From Octopus vulgaris (taxonomy: Eukaryota): a stretch of 64,000 nt of DNA. The notes under the pieces were generated by a model. It saw nothing but the letters and a program-made list of their open reading frames with translations, was not told where the DNA came from and did not search any database. Every line of letters starts with the position of its first letter. The stretch's first letter is position 1. Position numbers and translations under genes: made by a program. This document shows, one piece after another, positions 251 through 56,163 of the stretch. The DNA is taken from assembly GCA_951406725.2 (NCBI GenBank), contig OX597830.1, positions 67,642,001 through 67,706,000 of the forward strand, written 5' to 3'.

Positions 251-313
251 TCATCTGCAAACTCTTCAACAACAATAACAACAATTATTAATTGATAAAA
301 ATGAAAAACAAAC

Positions 314-6872: not shown

Positions 6873-6906
<34 letters not shown>

Positions 6907-9900: not shown

Positions 9901-10234
9901 CTTTTTTTCCCTTACCATCTTTGAAAAAGGGAGAACATATTGGATAAAGTAGTCTAACAAGCACTTTCTAAGAAATTTAAACGTAAAGTATGAATGAGAG
10001 CAACTAGCGTCCACACGTTGATGGAATATCTTAAAAACTGATGATGTCATTCCATCAATGTGTAGACGCTGGTTGATCTCATTCATACTTTACGTTTAAA
10101 TTTCTGTAATTTTGAATTTTTATCACTTCTTATTTTGAACTTGACACAGACAGACATACTGTTGAAATATCGTTCAACTAATAAAATATCTTACAATCAA
10201 ATCGCACTCTTCGTCTTGACTATTATCATTATTA

Positions 10235-10291
<57 letters not shown>

Positions 10292-16805: not shown

Positions 16806-16847
<42 letters not shown>

Positions 16848-19800: not shown

Positions 19801-21616
19801 GGTATCCAGCTTTAGAAAGTCTGTCATATCAGATTGGAGCCTAGTGCAGCCACCTGGTTTGCCAGACCTCAGTATGGGAAGCGGATGTTAAACGATGATG
19901 ATGATGATGATATATATATATATACATGAGGAGTTCAGTTCACTGGTAATCTAAATGAATAGGTACACTTAACTACTATAATTGGTCATCCGTTAGGTTT
20001 TAAGTTCACAGTGAAGGCTGGAGCTAGGGATCAGTATTAAGGTTCTGTGTTAGCAGGTATATATTGAAGGAAAAGGACAATAAAAATCAAGGCAGGACGA
20101 CTATCTCAAGTCATTTATAATAATTTAATTAGAGTAAGGTGAAATTAAAGTCTTACAGCAGTTTCTAAGATATCCCAAGTGATAAGCTAGCATGTCTGTA
20201 CACTGGGTACTCCCTTAAGGCGAGTATGTATGAAAGTTCTAGGCAGGAAAATTCACAGTTCATAAGGAATAAAAATAGAGAAATAAAGAGTAGAAGTAGA
20301 TAGAAGAATACAGATAGGAGAAAAAAATTGAACACATCTTTTAAAATACTGCCTGGATCTACCTGGGATCATACCTAAGGGACTATTCAATCCCAGAAGT
20401 ACGGACCAACCTCCATACCTTCTGGAAAAAAATGAACTGTGAACTTTTTTCTTTGATACACACCAATATGAAAAATAATTGCCAGTTTACAAAAGAATGA
20501 AAGTGTATGTAAATATATTCACAAAAGATGTAAAATGTTGTTGCCATACAAATCCATTGGCAAAATCATGAATCTATTGAATACAATTTTTACAAACAGA
20601 TATCAATAAAGATTAAAAAAAAACATTAAAAAAACAATTACCTTTGCAGTTTTCTTACATCCTACAAAATTTACTGTACCGAATGCATCACAGGGTTTTG
20701 ATGGTTCCTCATCTAAAGTATTTCTATCAAAAGAGAAATAGAAACCAAATCAATAGTTGAAGTGAAGTTGTGATGGGGAAGATAGAAATTGATTAATAGC
20801 AAAATCAAGTAATAAAGAACTTCCCCAATGAAAAATACAAATTTTCACAGATATAGATACTTAAATCCCTACACAGAAATAGGTAAATGTCTTTTAATTT
20901 AGTTTAATCAAATAATGATTAATTTTAAGCAATAATAACACCCTTAGTGGTTAGCCATATTGAGATGGCTAGTATACTTTATGATTAATTTTAAATAAAC
21001 TGAAAAGGAATAACAAGAAATATTTTACCATCAGAAGTAAATGTAGAAAATGGGATACATAGTGGAATAATGATTCAGCATCTGGGATGGTGCTGATATC
21101 ATAAGATATCATAAGACCAATTCCAGAAAGGTACTCATGTGACTGGCATGAAGTCACCAATACAAGCCAAATTCTTACCCATAGATGTGCTGTGTCCTCT
21201 CTTTACCTTTTCTATCACTAATACAATACCCTCTACTCCTCAGAGCTGGTTGCTCTCTTGCTACTTTATCTAGATACCACTGATGCACACATCTCTTGTA
21301 TCCATTAGACTAGAACCCACACTAACAGTAATGCCTGTTTTCCTGGAGGTATAGTTGAAGTGAGTGGGAAAGCAAGTGAGGGGGAGAGACAGAGAGGAAG
21401 TGAAAGAGAAAGACAGAAAGTGAGTGAGACAGTGAGTGTTGACAGCAAGGAAGGTGGCGTTCCTTTTATTGCTTTTAAATGTTTATCAGTTTTATCAGAG
21501 TAGGACTGCTGCATATATCGAAAGAAAAATAGATACATACGTACATGGATACATACACAGATTGTTAAATTAAAAGTGTGAGAGAGGAGGGACAGAGAGG
21601 AAATGAGATAGATAGA

Positions 21617-24600: not shown

Positions 24601-27600
24601 TTTAATTTACATCAATCTGTTCCTTATACAATAGAGAAAGGAATCAATATCACAAAATGTAAATTCTTTCACCAATAAAAGGTGTGTGATTGTTAAAATT
24701 ACTCTTCCAGGCAATAACAGAAGAATTTAAGATGGGCTGCCCCTGGGAGCTCCTCTATGCTGATAACCTTGTTCTTACAGCCGAATCACTACCTGAACTA
24801 GAGAAGAAATTTCAGATGTGGAAGGAACGTCTAGAATCAGAGACCTTAGAGATAATCTAGCAAAAACAACCAAAGTTTTAGTAATTAGGAAAGCAGACAA
24901 ATCCTAGATCCTTTCTAGTAGATGTTCCTGCCTGGTCCGTAGGAAAAGTATAAGTAGAAACTTCATAAGATGTACCTGGTGTAAGCTATGGATACATAAG
25001 AGGTGCAGCAATATCAGAGGAAGGTTAACAGGGAAATAGTTTTGTGTGTAGTAGGTGCACAGGTACAATAAACACTAAAAATGTACAGAAAATAGATTCC
25101 ATCAAATGCCAGGGTGAAAAGCTAGAAGTAGTTGATAGGTTCCATTATCTAAGTGACCAAATCAGTAGTGGAGGTGGATGCTCTGAGTGCATAGCTACAA
25201 AAATAAGAATAGGCTGGGCTCAGTTTAGAGAGCTCTTACCTTTGATGGCAACAAAGAGAGCCTCTCCCTTAGAGTGAAAGGTAGATTGTATGATGCCTGT
25301 GTGCGAACAGTCATGCTACATGACAGTGAAACATAGACTGTAACAGCCAAGGACATGTGTAGGCTTGAAAGAAATGAAGCTAGTATGCTTTGCTGGACGT
25401 ACAAGGTCATTGTGAATGTAGGGTAGAGAGTGTCATGAGAAAAAAGTTGGGCATAAGAGATATCCGATGTGGTGTGCAAGAGAGACAACTGTGCTAGTGT
25501 GATTATGTGATGCATATGGATGTAGACAGCTGTGTAAATGTGCTGATTTCTAAGGATAGATTTAACCTGTGGAAGAAGTAAACCCCAGAAGACATGGGAC
25601 GAGGTGGTGAAGCATGATCTTCGAATGTTGGACCTCATGGAGGCAATGACTAGTGACTAAGACCTTTGGAGATATGCTGTGCTTGAGAAGACCAGTCAAG
25701 CCAAGTGTCAAATCATAGTTGTGGCTGAGCTGGTGCCATGTAATAGGTGTTCCATGCCAGTGGCATTCAAATAGCACATTTCGAGCACAGGGCCTCATGA
25801 GGTAATGATGCTGATAAAAAGGACCTTTAAAGCTTTGGGCCTCACAAACAATCGAGACATTTGGTACTTGTACTTGTGATGGCGTTCACCCAGGGCAAGT
25901 TGAGCCAGCTTCTTCTCTGGTCCTAACGGCATCACGAACCATGGCAGCTCACACTCGACGGTTCTGTGCGAGGTCACTGGAGATAGTGAGCCATTCGCGG
26001 TTCCATCTGCGCAGACCAACCACCTGCAGACCTGACACACAACTGACACTGGAACCAGTAGCACATTAAAGCACCCTTAATTCTCTTCGAGTGGTTGGCA
26101 TTGGGAAGGGCATCCAATGGTAGAAACCATGCCAAATCAGACTAGTGTCTGGTGCAGCCCCTCAGCTCACCAACTGTCCAACCCATGCTAGCAGATGTTA
26201 AAAGATGATGTTGATGATTAATGGTATAGCTATCTTAAGAGAGATAAATGTAGAGAAACGTTAGATTGCTATATTAAAGGCCAATCATTTGCTTTTTGTG
26301 AGCCATCTGTTATTTTTCCATCTGTATGCCATTCATAAATAATACTAGTGATCTAATGGAGTAAGATTTAGAAGAGTAGCAATTTAGTATGCTATTTAGT
26401 ACCTCAATTTTATGTCTTCCTGTACCAATTCCTGAACATCATCCTGCAAATAAAAGAAATGATATTGAATATGAGAAAAAATGTTGGGGATTCAACTATT
26501 GACAATCTTATAGCATCAATTTTTGCCAACGATTATAGAAAAGGTATATTTCTTTTAAAACGTTTTTAAAACCAACATTCTTAACAGCCCTTCTCTAAAA
26601 CTTCTAATCTTTGGAACTGCAAAAAAAATTTCTATAGAATTTCTGAATGATCCCCACAAGAATATAATGGTGATTCCATATGACATATTCATACTTAGAA
26701 ACTGTAAGATCTGAGTTTCCAATGACAAGCCAAATTTATGTCTATCTCAGTTTGTTAAATCAGGGGTTTTAATTTAGATGGCTATATTTTTTTAAGTCAC
26801 TTTGGTGTATCAGTTAGCATGGCTAAATAATTTACTGGAGAGATAGTGTTCTATTTCCATAAATATTCTTAGCACATTTTTTCTGTCTTCTTGTTTATAA
26901 GATATACCATCCCTTGATTGTCTTACAACATCTGGGGAAATTAGGAACTGGCTCTACTGATATGAAAAATAGTAAGTTAGCCTCCATCTTATCTAAAATA
27001 ATTTTCCACCACTAATGATATGTAAACTAGCAGCTTACTCAACAAATTTCAAAACAATACTAGTCTGGTTTACCAATATGATACATTGTAGCTCATTCTT
27101 CTAATACGAAAAACAGCATCCAATAATTCTAAACTGAAAACTACTACACTGGCCATAATAGTATGACATAAAGAAGCCTGCTGTAAATGTATTGCATATA
27201 GTTGCTGGATCTACCTGTTGGAAAACTGGTAGATGGCTCCACTAGTTTGAAGAATAATAGCTTGGTCTACAGGTATAAAAAATAGTAGCCTGTTGTACCA
27301 ATATTGGAAAATATATAAATATATTTCAAAACATTATATACAGCATTCTTTTATACAAAAAAAAAAATGAAATTCTCAACAAACCATTCGTTATAGTTTA
27401 TGCAAATAGAACTAATCAAAGAATTATACAAAATTAAAAATAATTACTTATCTGCTTTTCTGAACACTTACCAATATAGGTATTTTTAGTGGAAAGTTTG
27501 GAATACAGCATGAGATAGTTCTTTGAAACGGTAAACTATTCGTATTGCTGTAAAATAAGTAAATGAGAAAATTCCTGATTAGTAAAGTGAATTTGACATG

Positions 27601-30600: not shown

Positions 30601-33217
30601 CACGAATATAATTAAAATTATAATTATCAGATTTCCCACTGAGTTCACAAATCAGTTTCAATTTCGGTTTAATTTGCATAAATCTGTTTCTTATATGATA
30701 AGAGAAAGAAATCAATATCATAGAATCTGAATTGTTTCACCAATAATAATGTGTTTGATTGTTGAAATCATTAATGCTATACTTGTCTTAGAGAAATGAT
30801 GGATTGCTATATTAAATGCCAACCAAATTTTGAATTATTTGAGCATTCTGTTGATTTCTGTCTTTCTGATTTTGTAAATAATGCCAGTGATAGAATTGAG
30901 TAAGATTTGAGAGTGTATTTCCAACATATTATGAGAAAAGACTTATATGGAAATTCGATAGTAAACTGATTTTAAGAGAAGTTTTTGTTTAGCATTTACT
31001 GGGATAATCTCAGCTGAGTGAAGTTTTTAAATTCACTATACACCATAGCTGAAATTCTAACATATATATACATATATATTATTAAATTTTACTAGTTCCT
31101 TGCATTACCTCTCTTCTTCTCTGCTGTATTTAACAATGTTCTGAAAACAAAAGAAATGATATATATAATAGAACTATGCAACAATGTGTTAGCACAAAAA
31201 TAGGGGTTTAAATAATAATGAGGATGTTTGATAGTATCTATCATATTAATTGTTTTATACGAAGCACATGTCAACAATTTTATGGGAAGAAAAATACAAA
31301 GCTATGATAACTTCTTATTTCTCTTCAAACAGAAATTGAAACTAAGAATTGAAACTGAAAATTAAAACCAAGTGAATGTCTCTGATCACTTGGTATTTAT
31401 CTTCCAATGTAAGAAGCTTAGGAAGGTCCAACTAGTGACTATATCCTTCAAAATCTTTCTTCCTCTGTATATGAAGCCAGTACCATTCAACTTATATATT
31501 ATACTCTCTAATTATTATTTTTCTCTCTTTGTCAATAAATAGAAACCGAATCAGACATTGAAGCTAAACACAGTCCTTTAACTCATTGGATGCTATTGAA
31601 TTGTCAAGGAAAATGGAAGTTACTTAATGATAATGATGATGATGATGATGTGATGGAGACAAACACCAACGTTCCATATGGTAGACTTGAATAATTGTTG
31701 AGATATTTCTCTCCCTCCATGAAACTAATGGTAGTCAAGATAACCCAAATGTAAAGAATATTTATCCACCAATATGATGTTGAGAGCACTCATTCTCCCT
31801 GATTGATACTAATGCATGCAGCATGTATGTATGTACGTATGTAATTGTTTTAAGAATAAAACAATTAAAAATTAAAACTAAAAATACAAGACATAAATAG
31901 AATAAAAATTAAAATTAAGGTATAAGCTGTATTGTTAATGAATATATATTCCATTTGAGAATCTAAGGATGTGATTAAGTAATTAAGACGATAAACTCAA
32001 AGTTAATTAAAGGTAAATGTAGATAGATACTTAAATGAAATTGTTTAAATGTATAGTACCAATGGATAGTATTAGTTGTACCAATGTGCAATGATATGGA
32101 GACGTATTGGGTCACCCCATAAATAATGCAGTTTTATCAATTGACTGAACTAAAAGTCGGAGGGGGATGGGATAAACTACCTGCATCAACTTGCTATAAA
32201 AGCAGGTAGTAATTTAACCATGTACATATCTTTAGTGCAAGTTTTGAAGAGTGTAATTCGCTTTTAACAGTTATTTTTTCAAACCTATAATGGAAGTAAC
32301 AAAGGAGCATCTTTGGTGTATTTTACTTTATGTGTTCAATAAAGACAACAATGCAATGGAAAGTGTGAGGAATATTTATGCAGAGTATGATATGGAGATC
32401 AGACAATAAATATAATCCAGAGTCAACAGTGGTTCCAGAAATTCTGAGGACGTCCTACAAACCCTAGTAGAATGAAATCACATCATAACTGTTAAGGAAC
32501 CTGCAGAGAAGCCTGGATTTAGCAGGGAAACTTGGATTCAACCATTCATTGACACCTGTGTGCCATTGGAAAAGTCAGAAAATTGGGTCAATGAGTTCCT
32601 CATAAACTTTCCAAATGTTAAACCCAAACCAAATTATAACAAAGGAGATCTACTATGAGCAACTTGAGTGGCTTATGTTAGCACTAGAAGAAAAACGACC
32701 ATCTTTGGTTTCTAGATGAAAGGTGTTCTTCCATGAGGATAATTCTCAGCTACATACAGTGGGGATAGCATTCTGAAAGCTGAACAGTTTGAATGGGAAA
32801 CGATGTCCCACCCACCATTGCTCCATCTTATTATCATTTATTCCACAGTCTTCAAAAACATTTGGACAGAAAAAATATGAATTCTGTAGATGAGGTTGGA
32901 AAAGTACTAGAGAAGTATTTTTCATCATGGACAAATGAATTTTGGAAGAGGGATCTTACGATTCTACTAGTTAGATGGAAGAGCATTGTAGGAAATGAAG
33001 GAGAGTATATTTTAGATAAAAAAGAACTTTGTTCATCTTAATTATGAAAGATAAAAGAAGTATAAAAACTGCATTATTTATGGGATGACCCAATACATAC
33101 ACATGTGCATATGCATGTGTGAATTTGTGTGCATGCATGCATGAGATCAACGAAATCTGTAAAATGTTTTATTCTTGGAGAAAGAAATAATGTTTTGAAT
33201 ACAATTCAGTTTGATAT

Positions 33218-33265: not shown

Positions 33266-34906
33266 ATGTGTGTGTGGGTGAAACTAAAAATCTAAATTTA
33301 ATTTACTTTGAAAGTTTGCAGTTTTACTTCGATTAAAACAGCAACGAGTCTTTAACTGACATTCCATTGATTGTTTTAGACTTCTCTTCTCGGCGTAACA
33401 AAAGACAAAGGAGTCCATAAAATTTTTACAGCATCCACACATCCGAACTTCAGATTGTAAAGATAATTTATTCCTCTCCATCAACTCGTTTTCAGTAAAA
33501 AGAAGTTCATTGTGAGTAGGACGGAGGTCAGATTAGTTGAAAGCCCCCCTCCCCCTCCACACACTCACACAAATAATTTATTATCAATTTTATTTATTGA
33601 CAATAACTGTCTACATAGAAACAAGCTTTGCCAACTCCAGAAAGAGCAAATGTGGAATCACTTGAATTCATGAGCGAATTTATCCTGCTCCAACCTGTGC
33701 CCATGCCAATGAGATTCAACAAAAGCACGTTAGTAGCAACACTAACACTCTCCGTAATTATAATGTTACTATCAGTCCGAATATGCTTGATGCACATTTG
33801 AACTGGGAAACAAGCTACTAACTGCATTTAGTCATGCAGCGCCACCTACCTAGACTGTGAGATGCTAGTATTTTGGAGTAGTTATCTCCTCTTTGGTCAC
33901 AGATCCTAGGCAGATGATGCTATGAACTGATACTCTTACACTTTTCCAGTCACCATACAGTGACTGGTAGGGCTATACAGCATTTTCAATTATTAACAGT
34001 CCCCAAACCATTTTTGCTATTAATACAAATATACCATTTCATTACTGTAATTTTGCAAACATAGGATGTTTTTTCCTTTTCAGGATTTCAGTTAGTTACA
34101 AACATTTGCTAATTTTAAAATAAAAAAACAAGCCCTATGTAGTGGAGTTTATCACAGAAAGCACACAAGCACACCTTATTAAATGGATTTTATTATTAAT
34201 TTCAAAATGGAAAAGATGTGGTGAATTGTCATGCATGAAATTGTCAGTGCTGAACTGTCATGTGAAGAATTGTTGGGTGCCATTGAAAATACTAGTTGGT
34301 CTAGTACTATAAACAGTATACATCCATACTAAAATAAAAACTATTACACTTGTTATAAAACATGAAAGCCTGCTGTAAATATATGAAATATAGTTATTAT
34401 ATCTACCAATAAGAAATAGCATAGACAGTTCTATCTTTTGGAAAATAGTAGATGGTTCTACCAGGCTTATTCTACCAGTGTAAAATTAGTAGCCTGTTGT
34501 ACCAATGTGCGAAAATATATAAAAATATTCATAAACAGAACATACAACATTCCTTTTAGGCAAATCCATTGATGAAATTCTCAACAAACCATTTGTTACA
34601 ATCTATGCAAAAAAGAACTCATCTATAAAATATAAAATTTATAAAGAATTACTGTTCTTCTTTTCTGAGAACTTACCTTTATATCCATATTTATATCCTG
34701 AATGACCAGATGAGATAATATTCGTAAATCTGTAAAATCAGTAAATGAAAAAATTCCAGATTGGTAAAGTGAATCTGACATAAGTCTAGAGTTTCAAATT
34801 TCAGTCTTTATCTTTTAACTGGGAGTGCAGAATAGAAGAAAAGTTGTGTTTTGGCATGAAATGGAAATAGAATTAAAGTTTAAGGAATTATGTGACAGGT
34901 AAAAAG

Positions 34907-37900: not shown

Positions 37901-38708
37901 GTAATCTCCGCTGTTCATTTCTTTCTTTTTTCTTTGCATTATCGACATCCCCAAAAGTTTTTTGTTTAGTATTTACTGGGATAATCTGAGCTAAGCAAAG
38001 TTCTTAAATTCACTATACACCATAGTTGAAATCATAACATATATATATATACTTATTTATTATCAAATATAAGGACATATTTATTGCATTACATTTTTGT
38101 GAATAGTTGGTCTATTTCAGGTTCCTGAAAATAAGCGAAAGAATAGCAAACGTTAGAAGGAATGATGGAGTTCAAACTTCTGACATTAATGAAATAATAC
38201 ATAGATTAAATTTTTACAACAAATTATGCAGAGAAACATAATTAAATACAAAGTGTACACGTTTAAGACATAAATGTAGCCAAGATTATCTGGTGGAGAT
38301 AATCCAATAGCTATTAACAGAGATATACGATTTCTTTTTTCCTATTTACAGTTTTTAGTGTGGTACACTGGTTTTGATATGAGATTTGAATGGATGAAAT
38401 CGTCTGGATCAAAATAGTTTCCCATGATGATAACAGTATTTTATTTAATCATTTTAAACATTTGTGTAAGACTTGACAGAAAATTGCACCTCCAGTCGTG
38501 GTAAATATTTTACAATCAATATTTTAAACAACCTCACAGAAAACCAGCCATCCACCTAATCACTAATCAGTCTGGTGGGCACATAAGCCAGATCGACTAT
38601 TCTTTGTAAGCCTAGTACCTATTCTATTGGTTCTTTTTGCTGAACCGCTAACTTACAGGGACATAAACACACCAACATCGGTTATGCAATGGTAGGGTAC
38701 AAACACAG

Positions 38709-38752: not shown

Positions 38753-41700
38753 GCATGTATTTATCTACAGATTATGATATTCTCTTCTCATTGGATCGTA
38801 GGAAAACATTAAGTGATAGGAAAGAGTAATTTTGATATTTCAAATGACCACCACAAACATTCTATGAAGTAACATAAAATTATCAAAACAGTTTTCAGAA
38901 ACTTTGCTTTCAAAGACCTGTATAATGTAAAAACTAGCAACTTATTCAAATATCAAAAATACTAGCCTGATCTAACAATATGGTATACAGTAGCTGGTTC
39001 TTCTAATATTATAAATAGTATCCAGCCATATTAAAATGGAAACTAATACACTGACCATAATAATATTTAAAAACATAGAAGACTGCTGTAAATATATGAA
39101 ATATAGTTGCTGGATCTACCAATAGGAGATAACGCAAACAGTTCTACTTATTGGAAAATAGTAGTTAGGTCTTCCCGTCTGAAGAATCATAGCTTGGGCT
39201 ACCAGTATCAGAAATAGTAGCTTGTACCAAGATGAGAAAATATATAAAAATATTCATAAACAGGATATACAAAATTCCTTTTATACAAATGCATTGATGA
39301 AATTCTCAACAAAAATTTCATCATAATTTATACAAACAGAACTAATTAAGCATACATAAAAGTTTTAAAAGACTTACATTTTCTAGCCATGAATCGTCAG
39401 CTGATCTGCAAAATCAGAAAATGAGAAAATTCCAGATTAGTAAAATGAGCCTGTCGTAATGAGTGAAGCATCTTATAGTTCAGGCTTTATGAAATGTAAT
39501 GTGTCTTGAATGGCTCAACAATGCAGAGTGGACTGTAATAACTGTGAAATAATTTAATTATTTATAGTCTAATATAATATTTAGGAATATAAAAATTCCT
39601 TCTTCAGATATTGCTTGGAATGAATCGAGTCACTGTTATAATCGGTTACTGATTTTTTTTTGATTTTTTTGGAAGTGTCTCTGCAGTGGTCTCATGAAGC
39701 TCCTTCTGAAATTCCTCATGAGGAGTGCTTGAGGGTGGCCATGTCTCAAGCTTATGTGTGTTGGCATATCCACAATGTTGCTTCTAAGTTATGTATTATA
39801 CGTGCATTTTTTTATACATAAGCATGTTACTATTGTGCGTGCAGGATGTCAATGTAAAATAATATAGTGATTGCTAATTTCCAACCTGTTGTTAATTTGG
39901 GGCCCTAATCTGTCTGTGAGGATAGCTTCTTTAATTCTGAAATTTCTGTCATTGGCTTCAGTTGTGATTGTTATGTTTTCCTCGGTGTTCTGGCATCTGT
40001 CCAGATGTTTTCTGAAGGAGGAGGCTCACGTGTTTAAATATTCTTTGATGCGAATGTGTGACAGTCTGGTTGTGCCACCCACTTAAAAATTGTTGCATTT
40101 GTTACATTGGATTCTATACACAGCATTTACTCGTTGGCATAAATCTGTGTCGCGGATAGTTTGTGGTTGGGTTCTTGGTTTGTGGGGGGGGGGGAGTGGG
40201 TGGTCTAGTTGGTACGTTGGAAATTTGCTGAGTGTGTTGTTGCTGTTTTTCTTTATTACCAATTGCCATTTGAGTTGATCGGCTGTTCAGGAAAAGGTAG
40301 GCTTCCAGGTTGAGTAAGATTTTCTCGTTCGGCTGTTGGCTCAAGATAAATTTAGGGCCCAGACTGATGAGTTCTAGCTCTTCATGGGAGAGTGACCCAC
40401 TCAAGTGTGTGACTAGGGGTTTCATTGTTGATGGTATGCTGGTGCCCCTGATGTTAGGGTTATCTTGATCAGTGGATGTCCCATTCATCTGTGTCAGTGT
40501 AATAGACTGAGTTGTGGCAGTATTTGGTACAAAGCTACAAGAATTTAAGTTTGAGGCGTTTCTTCTCTTGGTTAACACAGTGCTGGAAGCATTGGTCAAT
40601 AGCTGTGGAGGTTTTTCGGTGTGTAGATTACACATTCGCACCAAAGAACATCTAAACGTGAGTCTCCTCTTTGAGAAAACTTCCAGACAAAAGCATAACA
40701 GTCACAATTGAAGCCAATGACAGAAATTTAGGAAATTTAAGAATTAAAGAAGCTATCCTCATAGACAGACTAGGGGCCTCAAATTAACAACAGATTGGAA
40801 ATTAACAATCACTATTATTTAACTACATTGACATCCTGCACGTACAATGGTAACATGCTTATGTATAAAAAAAATGCATGTATAATACATAACTTAGAAG
40901 CAGCGCTACGGAAATGCCAACACACATAAACTCAAGACAGGGCTGCCCTTGTGCACTTCTCAAAATAAATTTTAGAAGGGATTTCGGGAGACCACAACAG
41001 ACACACTTCCGAAAAAAAAATTCAGTAACCGTTGGAAAACTGATTATAACAGTGACTCGATTAATTCCGAGCAATATCTGAAGAATGAATTTTTATATTC
41101 CGAAATATTATATTAGACTATGAATAATTAAATTATTTAACAGCTATTATTGTCCACTCTGGCCTGTTGTGTCATTCAAGACACATTACATTTCAAAAAC
41201 AATATACAATGCTTCCAGCGAACAACAGTAACCATTTTCAGTCTTTACCTTTAAACTTAGCATGAGGAATAGACAAAAGGTGTTTCAACCAGAGATAAAA
41301 GGTGAGAGGCGAAGAAAGAGATAAAGGAAGAGAAGAAATTAAGACAGAAGTTGGGAAGAGGTAACTGGCAAAAAGAAATTATACCGTAATATAGATCAGT
41401 TCACACATGCGTATGCACTCACACACATGCACACAAGTATATATATCCTGCGTTTCAAATTATTAATGGCGTAACATTTAAGTTTTATTCAAAAGTGGCG
41501 ATCGTTCGTTACGAGAACAAGATAGCCTATATGGATGGATGGATATATATATAAATATATATATATAAACAGATAGACAGATAGATATCTATAATAATGG
41601 TATTTTTATATAAGCTTAAAGCTTATGGCGATCACCGTGCAATGACTAGGGAAAATAGTCTAATAAAGGGGCATATAAGCCCTCGACAGAAAAAAAGAAG

Positions 41701-46566: not shown

Positions 46567-49376
46567 ACTTTGCTCTCATTTGTTTATTCCCTCCCTGCCT
46601 GAGGATACCGTGGTCTTTTCCATAGGCTTTTCTTTCCACTGATAAACATAATCTTGCTTTTCAGATTTTTAAAATTCTTCTGTGATACACGATCACTTTT
46701 GACCGTCTTTATCTCCCACCGATGCCTTTTGATCAGAATTTTACATTTTTTCTCAATTTTTCCATTTTTCTTTTCCATTTTCAAAAAGAAAAGCTTTACA
46801 TTTGTATTTGTCCCCTCTCCGTTCAGCCCTGTGGGGCCAAAAAAGAAAGTTATCTATCTATCTATCTGTCTGTCTTTCTGGCTGTCTGCCTGCCTGCCTG
46901 TCTGTATGTATGTCTATCAGTCAATCAATCAATCTATCTATTTTCTCTCTCTCTTCTCTGACTCTATCTCTCTCTTCCTCCCTCTTTCTCCCTCCATCAT
47001 TCTTTCATGTCCTCACTCTCTCTGCCCTTCTCACACTGTTTATGAATATAATTAAAATCATTATTAGTAGAAATTATGAATTTCCCACAGAGTTCACAAA
47101 CCAGTTCGAACTTCTGTTAATTTGCATAAGTCTTTTCTTCATATAATAGAGAAAGAACTCAACATCACAGAATCTAATTTCTTTCACCAATAAAATTGTG
47201 TGTGATTGTTAAAATTGTTAATAGCTGTGTTAAGAGAAATAAGTGTAGAGAGATGATGGATATTAAAGGATAACCAAATTTTGGATTTTTTAAATGTTTT
47301 ATTAATTTTTTTCTGCTATTTGCAAACAGTACCAGTGAGCTAATCGGGTAGAATTTGGAAGAGTAGCAATTTAGTATATTTCAAACATATATAAAATGAG
47401 GTATATAGAAATCAATAAAAAAAACTGATATTCTTTGTTATCTCCCTTACTTATAGTTTTTGGGGTGCCACTGTCTACTAAAGAAATTTTTGTCTACTAA
47501 TTACTTGGATAATCGCAGCTTACAATATACCATAACTGAAACCCTGCTATATATATATGTACTTATATATTATCAAATTTAGGGACATATATCATGCATT
47601 ACCTGTCTTCCTCCGAGCTGTCCTTATCGTCTTTCTGAAATTAAAAGAAATGATATTGAATGTTAGAAGGAATGACAGAATTCCAACTTGTTACAACAGA
47701 TTATACTGAGAGAAGACCTTACTGAATATAAATAGTACAAGAGGTGAGAGTAGTGACAATTATCTGATGGAGACTATGTAATCCATATTATCACAGATAC
47801 ACATGATTTTTTTTTTCTTATTTATAGTTTTAGCATGGTACACTGGTTTTGACATAGGATTTGAATGGAAGAAATCTTTTAACTAAAAACAGTGTCAAAT
47901 GATGATATGAGAATTTTTATTTAATCAATTTAAACTTTTGTGTAAAATTCAACGTCATATGAGACTTAGAAATGTATACAATACCCCACAACTAGCTTTA
48001 AATTGACTAAAAAGAAGAGACGAAAGTGTGTAAATAGAGAACAATTAAAAGGTCATGTTACTGAATAGACATTTAATTTGCATGTATTGGACGATCTTTT
48101 ATTTGACGTACCTTGAAAGAAAATTGCACCTACAGCCCTGATTAACATTTTAAAATCAAAATTCCAAACAACCTCTCTCTCACATTGATAATAATTGCAA
48201 CTGGAACAAATCATTCGATAAGGCATCTGAATGATTCCCAGAAGAACAGAATCATGATTCTATATAATATATTCCTGACAGAATATAGCTGAAACAAATA
48301 TTGAGCAGTCAAAGTCCTTGTTTGGTAACTTTGCTCTGTATCTGATTCCTTTCATGCATTGGCAGATCTTGATGAGATACTAGAGATATATAGAGATATA
48401 CATTTCACCTTAATTTACATAAAATTTAGATCTCTATACAGATAACATGAATTATTTAGTCATATTCCAATGAAAAGCACAAAGAAACATTCAGTAAACC
48501 TATCAAGAAAATATTCCAAGACTGATGGTTACTAAAGCAACGTTAAAGCTTCACCATCTCTGACGACCTCTCGTAACAAACAGAAATGTATTTCTGCCAT
48601 TATTGGTGCAGCTTTATAATACTCATTATGAAGCAGTATAACACAGAAAATAATAATCACCGAATTTCTACGATGTGGTAGAGGCCTACAATACAGGAGT
48701 TATGAAAAGTATTATACACTAGCATACCTATGTCCTCAAAAATGCAGGCAACTTTATTAATGATACAAAATGGCACATGAGTGCAGGGGGAGAAAACATA
48801 TAAGTGTATATATATATATATATATATAAAGAGGTATGTTATAAGGTATTTCTCCAAATGTTTACTGTTTTCCTTATAATTTTTGAAAACCTGATTAAAT
48901 TTGATGATTAGTATATAAATTCTGTTATGATTCTTATTAGATAAGAATTTAGAGATATATTCCATTGGTTTATTTCAAATAGATAACCCTTAAGCATGTA
49001 GGTTTCCTGGAGTTTTAACATAAATTAATAATTAAAATAATAATGATAATAATATAAGCAAAAATAAAAGATGAGTACCATTGTTATCAAGTGAACGATA
49101 GTTTGACATCTCGTGAGACTTCAACAGGTCCAAATAATAATTTTGTCAATCTACTTCATTTTGGTGAATATATAAAGGATTGAGGTACCTCCCCCAGATA
49201 TAGAAACAAAATAAAAGAAGAGTGTCATTGTCATCAAGTCACAAGATGTCGAAATATCCTTCACTTGATGACAATGGCACTCTTTTATTTTTGCTTCTAT
49301 ATCTAAAGGAGTTACCTCAATCCTTTCATCATCATCATCATCATCATCGTTAATAATAATAATAATAATAATAATA

Positions 49377-49424
<48 letters not shown>

Positions 49425-50740
49425 AAGGAGTATGAAGTAGCATTTCATGAATTTTAAGTTTCGTTTTGATTTAAATGCAACTGAATATTGACCTACACAA
49501 GTTTCCATTACATTGGTTAGTAACCATTGTAATTGTAACTTTACTGTAATACTGGTGCAGTTTCTTGAAGGTCTTCATTGTGATATCCTTTCTGATCGAA
49601 CTGGTGAAAGTTTCATGTTAATTTTAGTATTACATAAAATAAAGTGGTGTTAAACGTTAATTCAGATGTAAACTTTATTTTGAATTCAAAGAATTGATTG
49701 GATAAATTCTCGTTTGTTTCTTAGAGTCAGTTATTTCAAAATATATCATTCGATTGATTATATTACGATTGATTATTTAGCACTTATTTATATTGTGTAA
49801 AATTAATTTCCCTTCTTATGTAAACATCTTAATTTTTGTTCGTGTCTAAAATTTATTACATTATACTTTTTGATAAAATTCTTCTATGCACAGGTTTTAT
49901 TTATTTGTCCCTGGTCTATAAGCAGTACTAATTACTTCTCTAGATTGCTAGGCCTTTACAGTTCCAGGCTTGACAAGCTACCACTAAAATGGAAAAAGTG
50001 TATTGACAATATAGGTGCATACCTTGATGAATAAAACTATTCCTTGTATTTATAAAACATGAGCAAACTTTTTTCTTTTCTACAAATTTCATCCTTTATG
50101 ACCTAATAGAAGCATTTTGTACCAACGTGAGGAAATATATGAAAATATTCACAAAGAGGATATGCAAAGTTCATTTTACACAATCCAGTGATGAAATTCT
50201 CAACAATTCAATTATCACAATTTATGAAAGCAACAAAAATAAATCATAATTTAAAAGTTAAAAAAAGACTTACTCTTTTTAGTAGCTCAAAATATTCATC
50301 AAGTAAGTCACTGCAAAATATGTAAATGTGAAAATTTCAGATTAGTAAAGTGAATCTGTCATTATGAGGCTAGAGTCTAATATTTCAGTCTTTATCTTTT
50401 AACTGAAAGAAAGAATGAAATGGAATCAAGAAAATGGAAGTGAAACTAAAATTTAAGGAATTGTATGGCAGCTGAAAAGTTATACCCAGTGAGAGTGATT
50501 GGATCAGAGAAGAAAGGTGAGAGGTGAACAAGGAGTAAAGGAAACTAAGAAATTAAGGCAGTAGTTTGAAAAAAGCAATTTCTCAAAGAAAGATAAGTAG
50601 GAATATACTGAAAATTGTAAGAGTGGGAGAAAAGATGGAGAAACTATTTGTGAGAGAGGCTAGTAACAAATAAGAGGAACCATACTTTAAAAATAGATTT
50701 ATTCACACACACACACACACACATTAAAATTAGATTTATT

Positions 50741-50778
<38 letters not shown>

Positions 50779-53042
50779 TACACACATGGGAAGGTAATAG
50801 TGATGGAGTTGGTGGTGTGGGCATACTCCTAACCGAGAAATGGGTGGATAAGATCGTAGAAGTAGTTAGAGTATGTGATACAGTACTTATGCTCAGGCTA
50901 GTCTTGCAGAATAGTATAGCTACAATTATATCTGTCTGCACCCAACAAGTGGGCCTACCAAATGAACAGAAGGACCACTTTTATGATATTCTTCTGCAGG
51001 CTACTTCCAAGATGAGTGACACTGATCTCATATTCATGACTGGGGATTTCAATGGGCATGTTGGACGGCAGCCCAGCATCTACCATCGTGTTCATGGGGG
51101 CCATGGAATTGGTCCCTGAAGCGAAGAGGGAGCAAGGCGACTGGAGTTCTGTGATGCAAATAACTTTTTGATCTCCAACACCAACTTCAGGAAGCCAGCC
51201 AGCCACCTGATAACCTATTACTTAGGTGACTCTGTTAGGCAGATAGATTTCATTCTCACCAGACTGTATGATGCATGACTGCTCTGAAATGCAAAGCCCC
51301 TCCCTGGTGAAAAATGTAGCCCCAGCATAGACTAGTCATTAGTGACTTTAGACTCCAGGCCAGAAAGATTCTAAGAAGCAGCCAGTCTGGAAAAGAAGGA
51401 TCTGGCAGCTTGAGAACCATTTGTTTGGTCGGAGTTAAACTTCACTTTCTTTAGTGCATAGGTCAGCAAAACATTTGAATTTTGTTGATCAGTATTATTA
51501 ATGAAAATGCTGCCTTAACCCTTTCGTTACCAAACCGCCCAAAGCCGCCCGAAAAAAATTTTGGTTTATGAAACCAAACCGCCCAAAGCCGCCCGAATTT
51601 ACCTATTCATATTTAAATGAGAATATCAGAGCAAATCTCTTCAGTACATTCGTGAAAACTCGTATTATACTTCGTAAACAGTTCAGCTACAGTTTTGTAC
51701 AATAATCGAAGTGTAATTTTAATTTCGTGAATTTTGGGAGATTTTGTTCCGAAATTTGTTCCTATTGTGTTTTCAAAATTTGTAATTCTGACAAAAAATG
51801 GATACGAATTTCATTATATCAAGCAGCGAGTCAGAATTCGAAGGATTTTCTACTGAAGACCTTCATAAATCTAACTCTATGACTGAAAAAAAAAGCACAT
51901 GGTATTTGATAATGAATTTGATGTTTCATTTTCCGAAAGTGAAAACAGTGAATCTGAGATCTCCGATAGCGATAAAGAAAACGAATTGGCACCTGAATGG
52001 ATTGAAAATTTAAAAACTGTTTCTTTCGGTGATTTTTCTGCAGAAACTGGACCAAGCCACAGACTTTCCCAGAAGGGTAAAGCCTTAGGCTATTTCTATT
52101 TACTTTTTCGAATGAGCCTATTTGAAATCATTACAGCGAAAACGAACTGTTTCGCTAAACGTAAACAAAGCGAAAGAAAGGATAGTTTGTTATTTCCCAC
52201 AACCTTAAATGAAGTTAAGGCCTATTTTGTCATAAATATTATTATGGGTATCAGAAAGTTACCCAGAATAACAAATTCTATCGTAAAATTTTGTTGTATA
52301 CCCAATTGAATATTAGCTAATAACTCATTTTCTATAGCGATGTTTGAACAAAATTTTGATAATTTTATATTTTGTGGAATTTACCTGTATCTACCTGCAA
52401 ATAGAGTCACTTTGTGACAAAAATTATAGTATAGAATTGGTTGAAAATATTTCCTTAAATTATCTTCCAAAAATCAGATTGATATATCGATAAATAAAAA
52501 AATTATAGTTGTTTCATGAAACCAGACTAAATTTATGATTACGTTAGAAATTAATTGAAACACATAAGGGGTGTAATTTGGTCAGAAATATAGTAACGAA
52601 AGCCTTAAGAGATATGAACATAGAGAAATGATGGATTTTTATATTAAATGCCAAACAAATATTCTTTTATGCCTTCTGTTGATTTCCATCCTTCTACTAT
52701 TCATCAATAATACCAATATTCTAATGGAGTAAGATTTGGAAGTATAGCAATTTAGTATACATATCCATCATATTATGAGATAATAATTTACAAGGAAATC
52801 AACAATCTCCCTTGCTCATTGCTTTAAAATTATCAACATTTCCGGGAGAGGTTTTTGTTTGCTAATAACTGAAATAATCTCAACTGATCAGATATCTCTA
52901 ATTACTGGGATAATCTCAGCTGATCCATCTATACACCATAATTGGAACCCTGCTATATATATATATGTACTTATATATTAACAGATTTAGGCATATGTCT
53001 CTTGCAGTACCTCTTTTCATCTGAGCTGTCCATTTCATCTTC
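314..53042 (-). CDS. TRPM: TRPM-family (TRPM2-like) cation channel gene, partial: N-terminal microexons plus MHR1/2 (SLOG) domain exons; continues beyond the window to the left
   Basis: Six core exons with AG/GT boundaries and matching phases give [87 protein letters not shown], the motif order of the TRPM N-terminal region. Extension to 53042 depends on the microexon model. Confidence 0.9.
2241..2350 (-). CDS. TRPM: TRPM exon ([36 protein letters not shown])
   Basis: ttttag acceptor, gtcagt donor, 110 nt, phase 1->0; matches the TRPM VPVV..GG..TL..PVVVV motif; absent from the ORF track. Confidence 0.92.
2453..2663 (-). mobile_element. SINE family 1 (3' part)
   Basis: tgtttcagtcatttgactgc.gccatgctggagcac...tagtacttattctat repeated at about 36487 and, in part, 38590. 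Confidence 0.75.
2949..3948 (-). mobile_element. RTE LINE, 5'-truncated, with long 3' UTR and (GAT)n tail
   Basis: [28 protein letters not shown]-terminus; (cat)n at 2949-2972. Confidence 0.9.
3985..4120 (+). mobile_element. Ty3/Gypsy reverse transcriptase fragment
   Basis: Hand translation [31 protein letters not shown], the start of a Gypsy RT. Confidence 0.75.
4440..6030 (+). mobile_element. Degenerate LINE ORF1-like (zinc knuckle) element
   Basis: LCVVVEG / [12 protein letters not shown] knuckle-like motif; tail at 5975-6030 resembles the Tx1 3' end at 46800-46850. Confidence 0.45.
5568..5839. repeat. Long inverted repeat (arms of about 120 bp, 26-nt loop), probable Penelope pLTR remnant
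   Basis: 5568-5691 is the near reverse complement of 5718-5839. Confidence 0.85.
6285..6508 (+). mobile_element. tRNA-derived SINE family 2
   Basis: gagttcaaattc B-box-like motif plus gactttgcctttcatc..aattaagtaccagtt; further copies at 13393-13603 and 23918-24112. Confidence 0.75.
6559..6730 (-). CDS. TRPM: TRPM exon ([32 protein letters not shown]...NIP)
   Basis: ttctag acceptor, gtaggt donor, 172 nt, phase 0->1; hallmark [12 protein letters not shown] motif. Confidence 0.95.
7050..7735 (-). mobile_element. Old RTE LINE fragment
   Basis: Degenerate similarity to the 8.1-9.8 kb copy (agcacagcatatctcc; cactaaccactcatctacccctag). Confidence 0.6.
7891..8036 (-). CDS. TRPM: TRPM exon ([17 protein letters not shown]...[18 protein letters not shown])
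   Basis: ttgcag acceptor, gtaaat donor, 146 nt, phase 1->0; GAWII and IGIAPW motifs. Confidence 0.95.
8137..9760 (-). mobile_element. RTE LINE (RT domain to 3' UTR), decayed
   Basis: [31 protein letters not shown]; (cat)n tail. Confidence 0.92.
9971..10105. repeat. Inverted repeat with arms of about 56 bp, probable Penelope pLTR remnant
   Basis: agaaatttaaacgtaaagtatgaatgag...gatggaat / attccatc...ctcattcatactttacgtttaaatttct. Confidence 0.85.
10310..10960 (+). mobile_element. Dong/R4-like non-LTR retrotransposon, 3' end
   Basis: [37 protein letters not shown] (restriction-like endonuclease C-terminus); (TAA)n tail. Confidence 0.85.
10961..13372 (+). mobile_element. Dong/R4-like non-LTR retrotransposon, decayed and internally deleted
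   Basis: [61 protein letters not shown]; (TAA)n at both ends. Confidence 0.9.
13643..13820 (-). CDS. TRPM: TRPM exon (FLRVDHKTP...[19 protein letters not shown]...LVKAVKTK)
   Basis: catacag acceptor, gtatga donor, 178 nt, phase 0->1; W.L..PNLLIS motif. Confidence 0.93.
14257..15490. repeat. Inverted repeat (arms about 14257-14640 and 15178-15490), probable Penelope pLTR pair
   Basis: cttactgctgacaaag...cagcagcatccagaaattttt mirrored by aaaaatttctggatgctgct...ctttgtcagcagtaag; Penelope RT lies next to it. Confidence 0.8.
15650..16790 (-). mobile_element. Penelope-like element fragment (RT C-terminal part and endonuclease region)
   Basis: [26 protein letters not shown]; same family as 53.5-55.7 kb. 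Confidence 0.85.
16845..18062 (-). mobile_element. CR1-group LINE, 5'-truncated
   Basis: [24 protein letters not shown]; homologous to 58.1-60.0 kb. Confidence 0.9.
18398..19910 (+). mobile_element. RTE LINE, 5'-truncated
   Basis: [13 protein letters not shown]...GRGRPRKTW; (gat)n tail at about 19895. Confidence 0.92.
20642..20723 (-). CDS. TRPM: TRPM exon ([27 protein letters not shown])
   Basis: ttgatag acceptor, gtaatt donor, 82 nt, phase 2->0; P-x-DAFG-x-x-x-F motif that opens MHR1. Confidence 0.9.
21390..21790. repeat. Local tandem duplication (two copies of about 200 bp)
   Basis: ggaaggtgg...ttttaaatgtttatcagt...atcgaaagaaaa.tagatacat...attgttaaat occurs twice. Confidence 0.75.
21805..22545 (-). 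mobile_element. SINE family 3 fragments
   Basis: aaattaac.tgcaagtgg.tga.tact at about 21855 and 22387; reverse complement of the copies at 28175-28460 and 36944-37268. Confidence 0.6.
22853..23890 (-). mobile_element. Ty3/Gypsy LTR retrotransposon remnant (LTR, PBS, decayed gag)
   Basis: [32 protein letters not shown] gag-like; minus strand ...gaca-tttt-tggtgacagg (PBS-like) at about 23552-23570. Confidence 0.65.
24713..26217 (+). mobile_element. RTE LINE inserted in array copy 1
   Basis: [15 protein letters not shown], (gat)n tail; flanks join up in the paralogous copies. Confidence 0.88.
25862..26040 (-). mobile_element. Short 3' fragment of a second RTE family nested in the RTE 3' UTR
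   Basis: Minus frame [41 protein letters not shown], then a (caagta)n-type tail. Confidence 0.6.
26403..26443 (-). CDS. microexon A1 ([14 protein letters not shown])
   Basis: tttcttttatttgcag acceptor, gtacta donor, 41 nt, phase 0->2; joins the 20723 exon in frame. Confidence 0.75.
27472..27547 (-). CDS. small exon B1 ([25 protein letters not shown])
   Basis: attttacag acceptor, gtaagt donor, 76 nt, phase 2->0, open frame. Confidence 0.7.
28175..28460 (+). mobile_element. SINE family 3 (duplicated with the array; paralog at 36944-37268)
   Basis: tRNA-like head, then agcaagatactttatttc..gggccagccttgtcacattc; the same flanks surround both copies. Confidence 0.7.
31109..31140 (-). CDS. microexon A2 ([11 protein letters not shown])
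   Basis: tttcttttgttttcag acceptor, gtaatg donor, 32 nt, phase 0->2. Confidence 0.7.
32107..33093 (+). mobile_element. Tc1/mariner DNA transposon, decayed
   Basis: TIRs ttgggtcaccccataaataatgcagtttt / aaaactgcattatttatgggatgacccaa, TA TSDs, [23 protein letters not shown]. Confidence 0.92.
34677..34729 (-). CDS. exon B2, 53 nt, frame-discordant ([17 protein letters not shown] in the incoming frame; ...MDIK in the outgoing frame)
   Basis: gattttacag acceptor, gtaagt donor; positional paralog of the other B exons but 1 nt longer than 3n+1. Confidence 0.5.
35209..36397 (+). mobile_element. Tc1/mariner DNA transposon, decayed
   Basis: TIRs ttaggttgtctcacatgaaat / atttcatgtgagacaacctca, TA TSD; [27 protein letters not shown]; empty site at about 27965 in copy 1. 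Confidence 0.93.
36475..36803 (-). mobile_element. SINE family 1 with tRNA-like head
   Basis: Minus strand begins ggcgcaggagtggctgtgtgg...ggttcagtccc; absent from the paralogous site at about 28040. Confidence 0.8.
38093..38124 (-). CDS. microexon A3 ([11 protein letters not shown])
   Basis: cttattttcag acceptor, gtaatg donor, 32 nt, phase 0->2. Confidence 0.65.
39378..39405 (-). CDS. microexon B3 (SADDSWLEN)
   Basis: gattttgcag acceptor, gtaagt donor, 28 nt, phase 2->0. Confidence 0.68.
39490..41236 (-). mobile_element. Internally deleted Penelope-like element with inverted pLTRs
   Basis: Arms 39491-39960 and 40710-41194; [16 protein letters not shown]-terminal motif; GIY-YIG-like [27 protein letters not shown]; probable TSD ttcag(g/t)cttta. 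Confidence 0.88.
41073..41114 (+). ncRNA. Candidate minimal hammerhead ribozyme (mirror copy 39571-39612)
   Basis: AATAT-CTGAAGA-a-tgaat..attcc-GAAA-ta-TT-ATATT inside a Penelope pLTR. Confidence 0.5.
42309..42809 (-). mobile_element. Non-autonomous Helitron-like element
   Basis: Minus strand starts A|TC and ends with hairpin acccatgcgtagagtgggt, 9 nt, CTAG|T; a second hairpin end follows at about 42811-42840. Confidence 0.6.
43159..46853 (+). mobile_element. Tx1/L1-clade LINE ORF2, near full length, decayed
   Basis: APE start [39 protein letters not shown]-terminal CPRC..ETILH zinc finger. Confidence 0.92.
44758..44811 (-). mobile_element. 54-bp retroposed 3' tail with a 12-bp TSD
   Basis: CAACCTCCATCT at 44746-44757 and 44812-44823 flanks the insert. 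Confidence 0.8.
47603..47634 (-). CDS. microexon A4 ([11 protein letters not shown])
   Basis: tttcttttaatttcag acceptor, gtaatg donor, 32 nt, phase 0->2. Confidence 0.7.
49060..49326. repeat. Inverted plus direct repeat, probable Penelope pLTR remnant
   Basis: aaaggattgaggta...gtcatcaagt / acttgatgac...tacctcaatccttt. Confidence 0.75.
50274..50310 (-). CDS. microexon B4 ([12 protein letters not shown])
   Basis: attttgcag acceptor, gtaagt donor, 37 nt, phase 2->0. Confidence 0.7.
50786..51430 (+). mobile_element. RTE LINE AP-endonuclease fragment
   Basis: [33 protein letters not shown]. Confidence 0.85.
51519..52604 (+). mobile_element. piggyBac-family internal-deletion derivative
   Basis: TTAA TSDs, TIR ccctttcgttac / gtaacgaaagcc, piggyBac transposase N-terminal part ([27 protein letters not shown]); empty ttaa site in paralogs (about 47229). 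Confidence 0.88.
53011..53042 (-). CDS. microexon A5 ([11 protein letters not shown])
   Basis: tttcttttaatttcag acceptor, gtactg donor, 32 nt, phase 0->2. Confidence 0.7.
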
Positions 53043-53402
53043 CTGAAATTAAAAGAAATGATATTGAACGTTTGAAGGAATGACAGAATTCCAATTTGTT
53101 ACAACGGATTATACTGAGAGAAGACCTTACTGAATATAAATAGTACAAGAGGTGAGAGTAGTGACAATTATCTGATGGAGACTATGCAATCCATATTATC
53201 ACAGATACACATGATTTCTTTTTTCTTAGTTATAGTTTTAGCATGGTACACTGGTTTTGACATAGGATTTGAATGGAAGAAATATTTTAACTAAAAACAG
53301 TGTCAAATGATGATATGAGAATTTCTATTTAATCAATTTAAACTTTTGTGTAAAATTCAACGTCATATGAGACTTAGAAATGTATACAATACCCCACAAC
53401 TA

Positions 53403-53502
53403 NNNNNNNNNNNNNNNNNNNNNNNNNNNNNNNNNNNNNNNNNNNNNNNNNNNNNNNNNNNNNNNNNNNNNNNNNNNNNNNNNNNNNNNNNNNNNNNNNN
53501 NN
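53403..53502. other. Assembly gap (100 N)
   Basis: N run. Confidence 1.

Positions 53503-56001: not shown

Positions 56002-56035
<34 letters not shown>

Positions 56036-56128: not shown

Positions 56129-56163
<35 letters not shown>

What the first reader, a model, noticed from the sequence alone, without database searches (positions are those of the whole stretch)
47480..53402. Exons A4 and A5 diverge far more than their near-identical upstream intron
By hand count A4 and A5 differ at 8 of 32 nt (6 amino-acid-changing, 2 silent). The adjoining intron (47635-47994 vs 53043-53402) differs at only about 10 of 360 positions. High identity starts right at the splice acceptor, and the intron flank on the other side is clearly more diverged. 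This fits either diversifying selection on the microexon peptide or a gene-conversion or unequal-crossover tract that stops at the exon.
Basis: partly seen in the sequence, partly recalled or inferred. Interest (0 to 1): 0.7.

Follow-up and report, generated by a model that had tools for sequence, protein, structure and literature searches.

The report
Recombination seam in octopus TRPM microexons
Two tiny repeated exons of an octopus ion-channel gene look oddly different next to a nearly identical intron only because a recent copy-and-paste event ended at the exon's edge; there is no sign that selection drove these two exons apart.

Summary
The counts are right: exons A4 (47603-47634) and A5 (53011-53042, minus strand) differ at 8 of 32 nt, the upstream introns at 9 of 360. 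The exon is not specially diverged, though. The downstream intron differs at 8 of its first 32 and 90 of 350 aligned columns (25.7%); one change point at the acceptor explains the pattern; pN 0.23 is below pS 0.52. The exons belong to a spliced A/B microexon array that encodes an acidic linker ahead of a SLOG domain in an Octopus TRPM-beta gene. Contigs of three other DNA runs carry the shared intron block and run it past the window's gap edge, so an assembly artefact is unlikely. In two of the three, A5-B4-intron lies at several times the depth of A4's downstream flank, and RNA-like contigs join a B4 exon to an A5-type exon. Best reading: unequal crossover amplified the frame-preserving A5+B4 module (69 nt, 5.4 kb of DNA); gene conversion is the main rival. 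An ordinary mechanism in an array I found no description of. A weaker array-wide hint remains that older exons diverge more than their introns.

The parts
53011..53042 (-). Microexon A5, 32 nt, phase 0 to 2
   Evidence: AG/GT ends; peptide in annotated Octopus TRPM proteins; junctions to B5-type and B4-type exons in X16 contigs
53043..53402 (-). U5: intron upstream of A5, 97.5% identical to U4, cut by the assembly gap
   Evidence: 9 of 360 differences
53403..53502 (.). 100-N assembly gap; hides the far end of the shared block
50274..50310 (-). Microexon B4, 37 nt, phase 2 to 0; with A5 it makes a 69-nt frame-preserving pair
   Evidence: joints in X16
47635..53042 (-). Inferred amplified module A5 - intron - B4 - intron U4, 5,408 bp
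   Evidence: offset between A4 and A5; depth step in X3 and X10, not X1; B4-to-A5-type joint in X16. Inference
47635..47994 (-). U4: intron upstream of A4; in other runs the shared contigs continue to 48243-48369
47603..47634 (-). Microexon A4, 32 nt
   Evidence: junctions to B4-type exon and B3 in X16
47203..47602 (-). Intron downstream of A4, about 26% diverged from its A5 counterpart (52571-53010)
   Evidence: 90 of 350 aligned columns
51512..52601 (+). piggyBac-like transposon fragment with TTAA at both ends, inside the module; absent from copies in X3 and X10
   Evidence: Pfam DDE_Tnp_1_7; joint skipping 1,090 bp; ends
39378..39405 (-). Microexon B3, 28 nt
   Evidence: A4-B3 junction
38093..38124 (-). 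Microexon A3, 32 nt, the most diverged A exon
34677..34729 (-). Exon B2, 53 nt; in this sequence it breaks the frame into A2, whereas the annotated orthologues read through
31109..31140 (-). Microexon A2, 32 nt
27472..27547 (-). Exon B1, 76 nt
26403..26443 (-). Microexon A1, 41 nt; resembles the short motif that opens other SLOG repeats of the neighbouring proteins
313..20723 (-). Six core exons of the TRPM SLOG (MHR1/2) domain: 20641-20723, about 13643-13820, 7891-8036, 6559-6730, 2241-2350, about 313-393; the gene runs off the window's left end
   Evidence: Pfam LSDAT_euk in 2 of 2 core ORFs scanned; tblastn; 244 of 255 residues identical to P0002

Best explanation
A4 and A5 are old paralogues in a tandem array of exon pairs, about 25% diverged along exon and downstream intron alike. 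A recent non-allelic exchange between the A5 and A4 units, resolved in or near the conserved 3' splice-site region, put an A4-type upstream intron in front of an A5-type exon. Most likely this was unequal crossing over that duplicated the module A5-intron-B4-intron (5.4 kb). Because A5 (32 nt) plus B4 (37 nt) is 69 nt, each extra copy adds 23 residues in frame to an acidic linker before a SLOG domain of a TRPM-beta protein, so copy number can drift. Shown: the divergence step, the exon-equals-downstream rate, splicing, the block in other runs. Inferred: crossover rather than conversion, extra copies behind the gap, tolerance of linker length.
For: Exon 8 of 32 vs downstream 8 of 32 and 90 of 350. 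One change point at the acceptor; exon needs no own rate. X10's shared-intron contig begins exactly at 47635; those of X1 and X3 begin at 47662 and X3's A5 contig ends at 53068, either side of the first U4/U5 difference (47661/53069), as expected if both exons feed into one intron. The contigs of all 3 DNA runs continue to 48243-48369. Contig depths over the module are 252-316 in X3 (one piece 137) against 38-64 in the bins below A4, and 40-63 in X10 against 16.5. X16 has a joint from the 3' end of B4 into an A5-type exon, which duplication predicts. Joints 52926-47525 (X1) and 52888-47519 (X3) show other mosaic copies. An O. vulgaris protein (P0006) holds a second A5-B4-A4-B3 block.
Against: X1 shows no depth step (179 below A4, 169 and 95-137 within the module); the tool warns depth is no copy number and single-copy depth was not measured. 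The B4-to-A5-type joint rests on one run whose RNA status is a guess and, by equal depth, probably one contig. No contig bridges A5 and U5 by the tool's 31-letter rule (26 on the intron side). No run is the window's own individual as far as can be told (best share 0.76), and the gap hides the decisive junction. Annotated proteins P0002, P0003 and P0008 each show one A5-B4 pair before A4.
Confidence: 0.6

Rival explanations
1. Non-reciprocal gene conversion copied at least 360 bp of intron between the A4 and A5 units without changing copy number; the tract happened to end at the acceptor.
For: Gives the same step in divergence. X16 also has a B5-type exon joined to A5. X1 shows no depth step. 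The window's U4 and U5 share letters at 47710 and 47741 where the laid contigs of all 3 DNA runs differ.
Against: Does not predict the B4-to-A5-type splice joint or the depth step in X3 and X10; the shared block is at least 600-730 bp in other runs.
Confidence: 0.22
2. Recombination is the cause, but its end at the exon is not chance: exchanges that homogenise exons are purged, so introns homogenise while exon peptides stay distinct across the array.
For: Change point within -7 to +5 nt of the acceptor. A3 matches A4 and A2 at only 11 of 32 nt, below the worst 32-column window (15-20) in either flank. B exons are 28-76 nt long while their 120-nt flanks are 66-86% identical. Silent differences among the 10 A pairs sum to about 25 of 46 sites, above flank divergence (pairs not independent).
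Against: The 26 nt before the acceptor are conserved anyway, a natural place for exchange to resolve. Other copies have breakpoints in the downstream intron. Flank identities leave out gaps and are biased upward. Exon below both flanks is clear only for pairs with A3; 4 of 10 A pairs have p<0.05, one being A4/A5 itself. Part of the B length spread is donor-site shift.
Confidence: 0.1
3. Diversifying selection drove A4 and A5 apart after a recent duplication.
For: 6 of 8 changes alter amino acids. Against O. bimaculoides P0008 the microexons differ at 35 of 116 residues and the core at 47 of 255 (p=0.015); A4 differs at 4 of 10.
Against: Downstream intron equally diverged; pN 0.23 below pS 0.52. 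A4 identical in the window, P0002 and P0003; microexons 8 of 116 vs core 11 of 255 against P0002, p=0.31. A faster linker than folded domain is expected from relaxed constraint (established knowledge).
Confidence: 0.04
4. Assembly artefact: A4's intron (or its other allele) was attached to the A5 contig end.
For: The block ends at a 100-N gap and its last 77 nt are identical; no 31-letter bridge was seen.
Against: 9 fixed differences between the two copies; contig ends in 3 of 3 independent DNA runs branch at the acceptor or at the first U4/U5 difference.
Confidence: 0.04

Closest known systems
Argiope MaSp2 spidroin genes with repeated, homogenised introns (PMC9779670, passages read)
   Same: Intragenic tandem units of two exons and two alternating intron types; homogenisation attributed to unequal crossing over through repeated introns.
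   Different: There introns average 97.6% identity and coding units are homogenised too. Here only 1 of 10 A-unit pairs has a near-identical intron, exons stay diverged, units are 5-9 kb with transposon insertions, and the product is a linker in an ion-channel protein.
Schistosome micro-exon genes, MEGs (PMC4350168, passages read)
   Same: Runs of very small coding exons; fast protein change.
   Different: MEG exons are symmetrical, make up most of a secreted protein and some reach dN/dS above 1. Here single exons are asymmetric (only pairs keep frame), form a linker of about 120-130 residues in a channel protein, and A4/A5 has pN below pS.
Dscam duplicated exon arrays (PMC3236188, passages read)
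   Same: Tandemly duplicated, diverged exons within one gene; selection against conversion proposed there.
   Different: Dscam exons are mutually exclusive and showed no gene conversion; these are spliced in series and show a clear exchange tract.
Octopus TRPM-beta gene XP_052830018 (P0025) and relatives P0002, P0003, P0008
   Same: Same exon-encoded peptides in the same order before the SLOG domain; XP_052830018 is listed as TRPM-beta in Table S1 of PMC13143021.
   Different: The passages read do not mention the microexon array, its recombination, or the multi-SLOG neighbours. The window's B2 breaks frame.

Membership tests
TRPM channel gene (TRPM-beta) | SLOG/LSDAT (MHR1/2) domain | tested here: met
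   Pfam PF18139 above cut-off in 2 of 2 core ORFs scanned
TRPM channel gene (TRPM-beta) | MHR3/4 and ion-channel domain downstream | not testable with these tools
   Gene leaves the window; no genome held. P0002 carries PF00520
TRPM channel gene (TRPM-beta) | Phylogenetic placement in TRPM-beta | not tested
   No tree built; taken from Table S1 of PMC13143021 for the O. bimaculoides relative
TRPM channel gene (TRPM-beta) | Intact reading frame through the array | tested here: inconclusive
   B2 is 53 nt and breaks frame in the window; skipping B2+A2 keeps it; error or real variant not resolved
Non-allelic recombination tract (unequal crossover or conversion) | Abrupt step from old to near-zero divergence between paralogues | tested here: met
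   2.5% to about 26%, single change point
Non-allelic recombination tract (unequal crossover or conversion) | Present in independent data, not only the assembly | tested here: met
   Contig ends and extent in 3 of 3 DNA runs laid; indirect, other individuals
Non-allelic recombination tract (unequal crossover or conversion) | Copy-number gain (separates crossover from conversion) | tested here: inconclusive
   Depth step in 2 of 3 DNA runs, one B4-to-A5-type joint in X16; gap not spanned
Exon under diversifying selection | Exon more diverged than neutral flanks of the same age | tested here: not met
   8 of 32 vs 90 of 350, p=1.0
Exon under diversifying selection | dN/dS above 1 | tested here: not met
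   pN 0.23, pS 0.52 for A4/A5, low power; orthologous DNA not available
Schistosome-type micro-exon gene | Symmetrical micro-exons forming most of the coding region | tested here: not met
   0 of 9 A/B exons is a multiple of 3; linker is a small part of 924-1283 aa relatives
Schistosome-type micro-exon gene | Signal peptide, secreted product | not tested
   N-terminus lies outside the window; relatives are channel-type proteins
Dscam-type mutually exclusive array | One exon of the array per mRNA | tested here: not met
   Serial junctions in X16; O. bimaculoides isoforms X1-X3 include all exons in series
MaSp2-type homogenised alternating introns | Two exon and two intron types alternating in tandem units | tested here: met
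   A and B exons with homologous flanks alternate
MaSp2-type homogenised alternating introns | Introns 94% or more identical throughout the gene | tested here: not met
   1 of 10 A pairs (97% upstream); other A flanks 56-83%, B flanks 66-86%

The most novel reading that the evidence does not exclude
Octopus carries a TRPM-beta locus with tandem SLOG domains joined by a modular microexon linker whose length varies in 23-residue steps between individuals by unequal crossover, and in which selection keeps exon peptides distinct while introns are repeatedly homogenised, so that breakpoints cluster at exon edges. That would be a tunable, copy-number-variable N-terminus on a candidate sensory channel.
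Probability: 0.15. Interest if true: 0.6.

Novelty: new member of a known kind. Interest (0 to 1): 0.3.

Why it matters
As stated, it matters little: it is a clean example of a recombination seam mimicking accelerated exon evolution. The surroundings are of more value. The array is spliced, seems to vary in module number, and sits in an Octopus TRPM cluster with multi-SLOG proteins that I did not find described, in a group reported to have few TRP expansions (bioRxiv 10.1101/2021.11.14.466824, passages). If copy number and exon identity proved functional, it would give a testable handle on how a cephalopod TRPM channel's ligand-binding N-terminus is tuned.

Tried and rejected
Whole-genome search: no genome is held for this window, so the far side of the gap and paralogous loci could not be read. 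Search of the window for exon B5 or further A exons beyond the gap: only chance-level short matches in the part of the output shown; masked self-BLAST shows no further unit in 53503-64000. Run search: no RNA holder listed on record; X16 is RNA by guess only. 4 of 24 listed runs were laid, on 47040-53402 only, so the B2 frame break and A3-A1 junctions were not checked in reads; long parts of its tables were cut (249 more letter rows, 73 joints, 1,160 loose ends, 9,346 pieces). Depth was used only as a hint. A possible extra exon near 47450-47475 seen by eye was dropped: it has no counterpart in the annotated proteins. Gapped exon identities involving A1 are inflated; ungapped counts were preferred. 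No orthologous DNA could be fetched, so no interspecies dN/dS. Earlier scan findings: none in 3 of 3 look-ups. Literature: searches listed no paper on this array (20 of 33, 15 of 84 and 7 of 7 hits listed); 'microexon', 'SLOG' and 'tandem' have 0 occurrences in PMC13402157. The wtf preprint was read in passages and not used. Supplements of bioRxiv preprints were not seen and could list this cluster.

Full report
Setting. The window is AT-rich animal DNA with one 100-N gap at 53403-53502. Two minus-strand ORFs match Pfam LSDAT_euk, the SLOG domain of TRPM channels. A search with the exon at 6560-6730 returned 22 proteins among 32 candidates, 19 of them from Octopus, up to 97% identical. Six core exons map between 20723 and 313. 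Upstream lie nine small exons with AG/GT ends, alternating between type A (A5, A4, A3, A2 of 32 nt; A1 of 41 nt) and type B (37, 28, 53, 76 nt). Their peptides stand in the same order in annotated proteins of O. vulgaris (P0002), O. bimaculoides (P0008, P0023, P0025) and, up to A3, O. sinensis (P0003). The O. bimaculoides protein XP_052830018 is listed as TRPM-beta in Table S1 of PMC13143021 (supplement rows seen). The window's species was not determined.

Checking the observation. A4 and A5 differ at 8 of 32 nt, 6 nonsynonymous and 2 silent; the upstream introns differ at 9 of 360 (Fisher p=1.2e-5). That contrast is real. The downstream intron, however, differs at 8 of its first 32 aligned columns, 50 of 200 and 90 of 350 (25.7%), the same as the exon (p=1.0). 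The nearest 80 and 106 columns, which hold a conserved TA-rich stretch, are more alike (12 of 80; 15 of 106), but not significantly (p=0.27, 0.18). A two-rate model puts the change point at the acceptor (support -7 to +5), and a separate exon rate adds nothing (2dL=0.008). pN is 0.23 and pS 0.52, on only 3.8 silent sites. So the exon belongs to the old, diverged side of a seam. The exact end of the tract is softer than the likelihood suggests, since the last 26 nt before the acceptor match the old paralogue A1 at 24 of 26.

Is it an artefact? I laid 4 of the 24 runs listed on 47040-53402; all are contigs, and none holds more than 0.76 of the query's words. In X10 the contig of the shared intron begins exactly at 47635. 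In X1 and X3 it begins at 47662, and X3's contig over A5 ends at 53068; these flank the first U4/U5 difference at 47661/53069. I infer that in these runs several exons feed into one intron sequence. The intron contigs go on to 48243-48369, past the point where the window's gap cuts U5. No single contig bridges A5 and U5 by 31 letters (26 at most in the pieces shown), so the evidence is indirect.

Crossover or conversion? Unequal crossover between the A5 and A4 acceptor regions would duplicate A5-intron-B4-intron (5,408 bp) and place a B4 exon before an A5-type exon. One search shows both predicted signs, with limits. Contig depths across the module are 252, 308, 296, 313 and 316 in X3 (one piece 137) against 38 and 64 in the two bins below A4; in X10 they are 40-63 against 16.5. 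X1 shows no step (179 below A4; 169, 95, 137, 118, 116 within). The tool warns that depth is not copy number. In X16, RNA by guess, contigs join B5-type to A5, A5 to B4, B4-type to A4 and A4 to B3, which supports serial splicing, and one joint leads from the end of B4 into an A5-type exon. Joints 52926-47525 (X1) and 52888-47519 (X3) point to further mosaic copies with breakpoints in the downstream intron. O. vulgaris P0006 holds a second block whose A5 equals the window's at 10 of 10 residues. Against this, P0002, P0003 and P0008 each show only one A5-B4 pair. U4-U5 divergence (2.5%) is close to that between U4 and the other runs' contigs (17 of 708, 16 of 609), so the event is recent on that scale.

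Mechanism. A exons run from phase 0 to 2 and B exons from 2 to 0, so A5+B4 (69 nt) is a frame-preserving unit. Exchange between homologous introns adds or removes 23 residues of an acidic linker without breaking frame. That the linker tolerates this is inferred. A1 resembles the motif that opens other SLOG repeats in the neighbouring proteins, so the A series probably arose from that exon; this is read from the alignment, not tested by a tree.

Selection. A4 is identical at 10 of 10 residues in the window, P0002 and P0003. Against P0002 the microexons differ at 8 of 116 residues and the core at 11 of 255 (p=0.31). Against P0008 the figures are 35 of 116 and 47 of 255 (p=0.015), as expected for a linker under weaker constraint, though positive selection is not excluded without DNA. 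At array level a hint survives: A3 matches A4 and A2 at 11 of 32 nt, below any 32-column window of their flanks (minima 15-20), and B exons vary from 28 to 76 nt between flanks 66-86% alike, partly through donor shifts. Silent sites are about as diverged as replacement sites over the 10 A pairs, which fits old exons between younger, homogenised introns better than selection for amino-acid change. Flank identities exclude gaps and are biased upward, and the pairs are not independent.

Known parallels. Repeated alternating introns homogenised by unequal crossing over are described in Argiope MaSp2 genes (PMC9779670, passages). Schistosome MEGs (PMC4350168, passages) and Dscam arrays (PMC3236188, passages) resemble it in form but fail on defining features. 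Papers on cephalopod and metazoan TRPM (PMC13402157, PMC13143021, bioRxiv 10.1101/2024.05.23.594666 and 10.1101/2021.11.14.466824; passages only) do not mention this array in what I saw; searches listed nothing on it.

Verdict. The numbers hold; the exon-selection reading fails; a recent recombination seam is the cause, most likely unequal crossover (0.6) rather than conversion (0.22). The mechanism is ordinary. The array and its multi-SLOG neighbours deserve a look with long reads. Interest 0.3.

Noticed in passing
P0001, P0003, P0005, P0006, P0028: Annotated Octopus proteins of 989-1474 aa made of several tandem TRPM SLOG domains with no channel domain listed; in each species they share a longest-contig length with the array-bearing gene. 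P0002 has two SLOG domains either side of the microexon linker. Not found described in the papers read.
   Followed up: partly
window 34677-34729 (-): Exon B2 is 53 nt and shifts the frame into A2, while P0002 and P0008 read through; O. sinensis model P0003 stops just before B2. Assembly error, null allele or skipped exon pair not resolved.
   Followed up: partly
window 38093-38124 (-) and B exons: A3 is far more diverged than its flanks; B4 and B3 use a donor aligned about 24 nt downstream of that of B2 and B1, so exon ends have shifted into intron.
   Followed up: partly
window 51512-52601: piggyBac-like element with TTAA ends, absent from module copies in runs X3 and X10 (polymorphic or copy-specific insertion).
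   Followed up: partly
P0002 vs P0008; P0013 vs P0017: The array-bearing TRPM paralogue is 78% identical between species over 404 columns of its core, while another TRPM pair is 94% identical over 419: the whole derived gene evolves fast.
   Followed up: no
window 53503-55696 (+): Retroelement right after the gap with a 534-aa reverse-transcriptase ORF (Pfam RVT_1) followed by an ORF that looks by eye like a GIY-YIG nuclease (Penelope-like; label recalled, not tested).
   Followed up: no
window 47599-47615 and 50284: Runs X1 and X10 hold an A4-like copy with several substitutions in and next to the exon; all 4 runs differ from the window at 50284 in B4, pointing to more paralogous copies.
   Followed up: no
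P0023, P0025 vs P0008: O. bimaculoides isoforms differ by a 13-residue segment upstream of B5, so the array probably has more, partly alternative, microexons beyond this window.
   Followed up: no
window 58664-59639 vs 63026-64000; 35391-35672: A LINE segment repeated at 93% identity, and a mariner-type transposase fragment (Pfam HTH_48).
   Followed up: no
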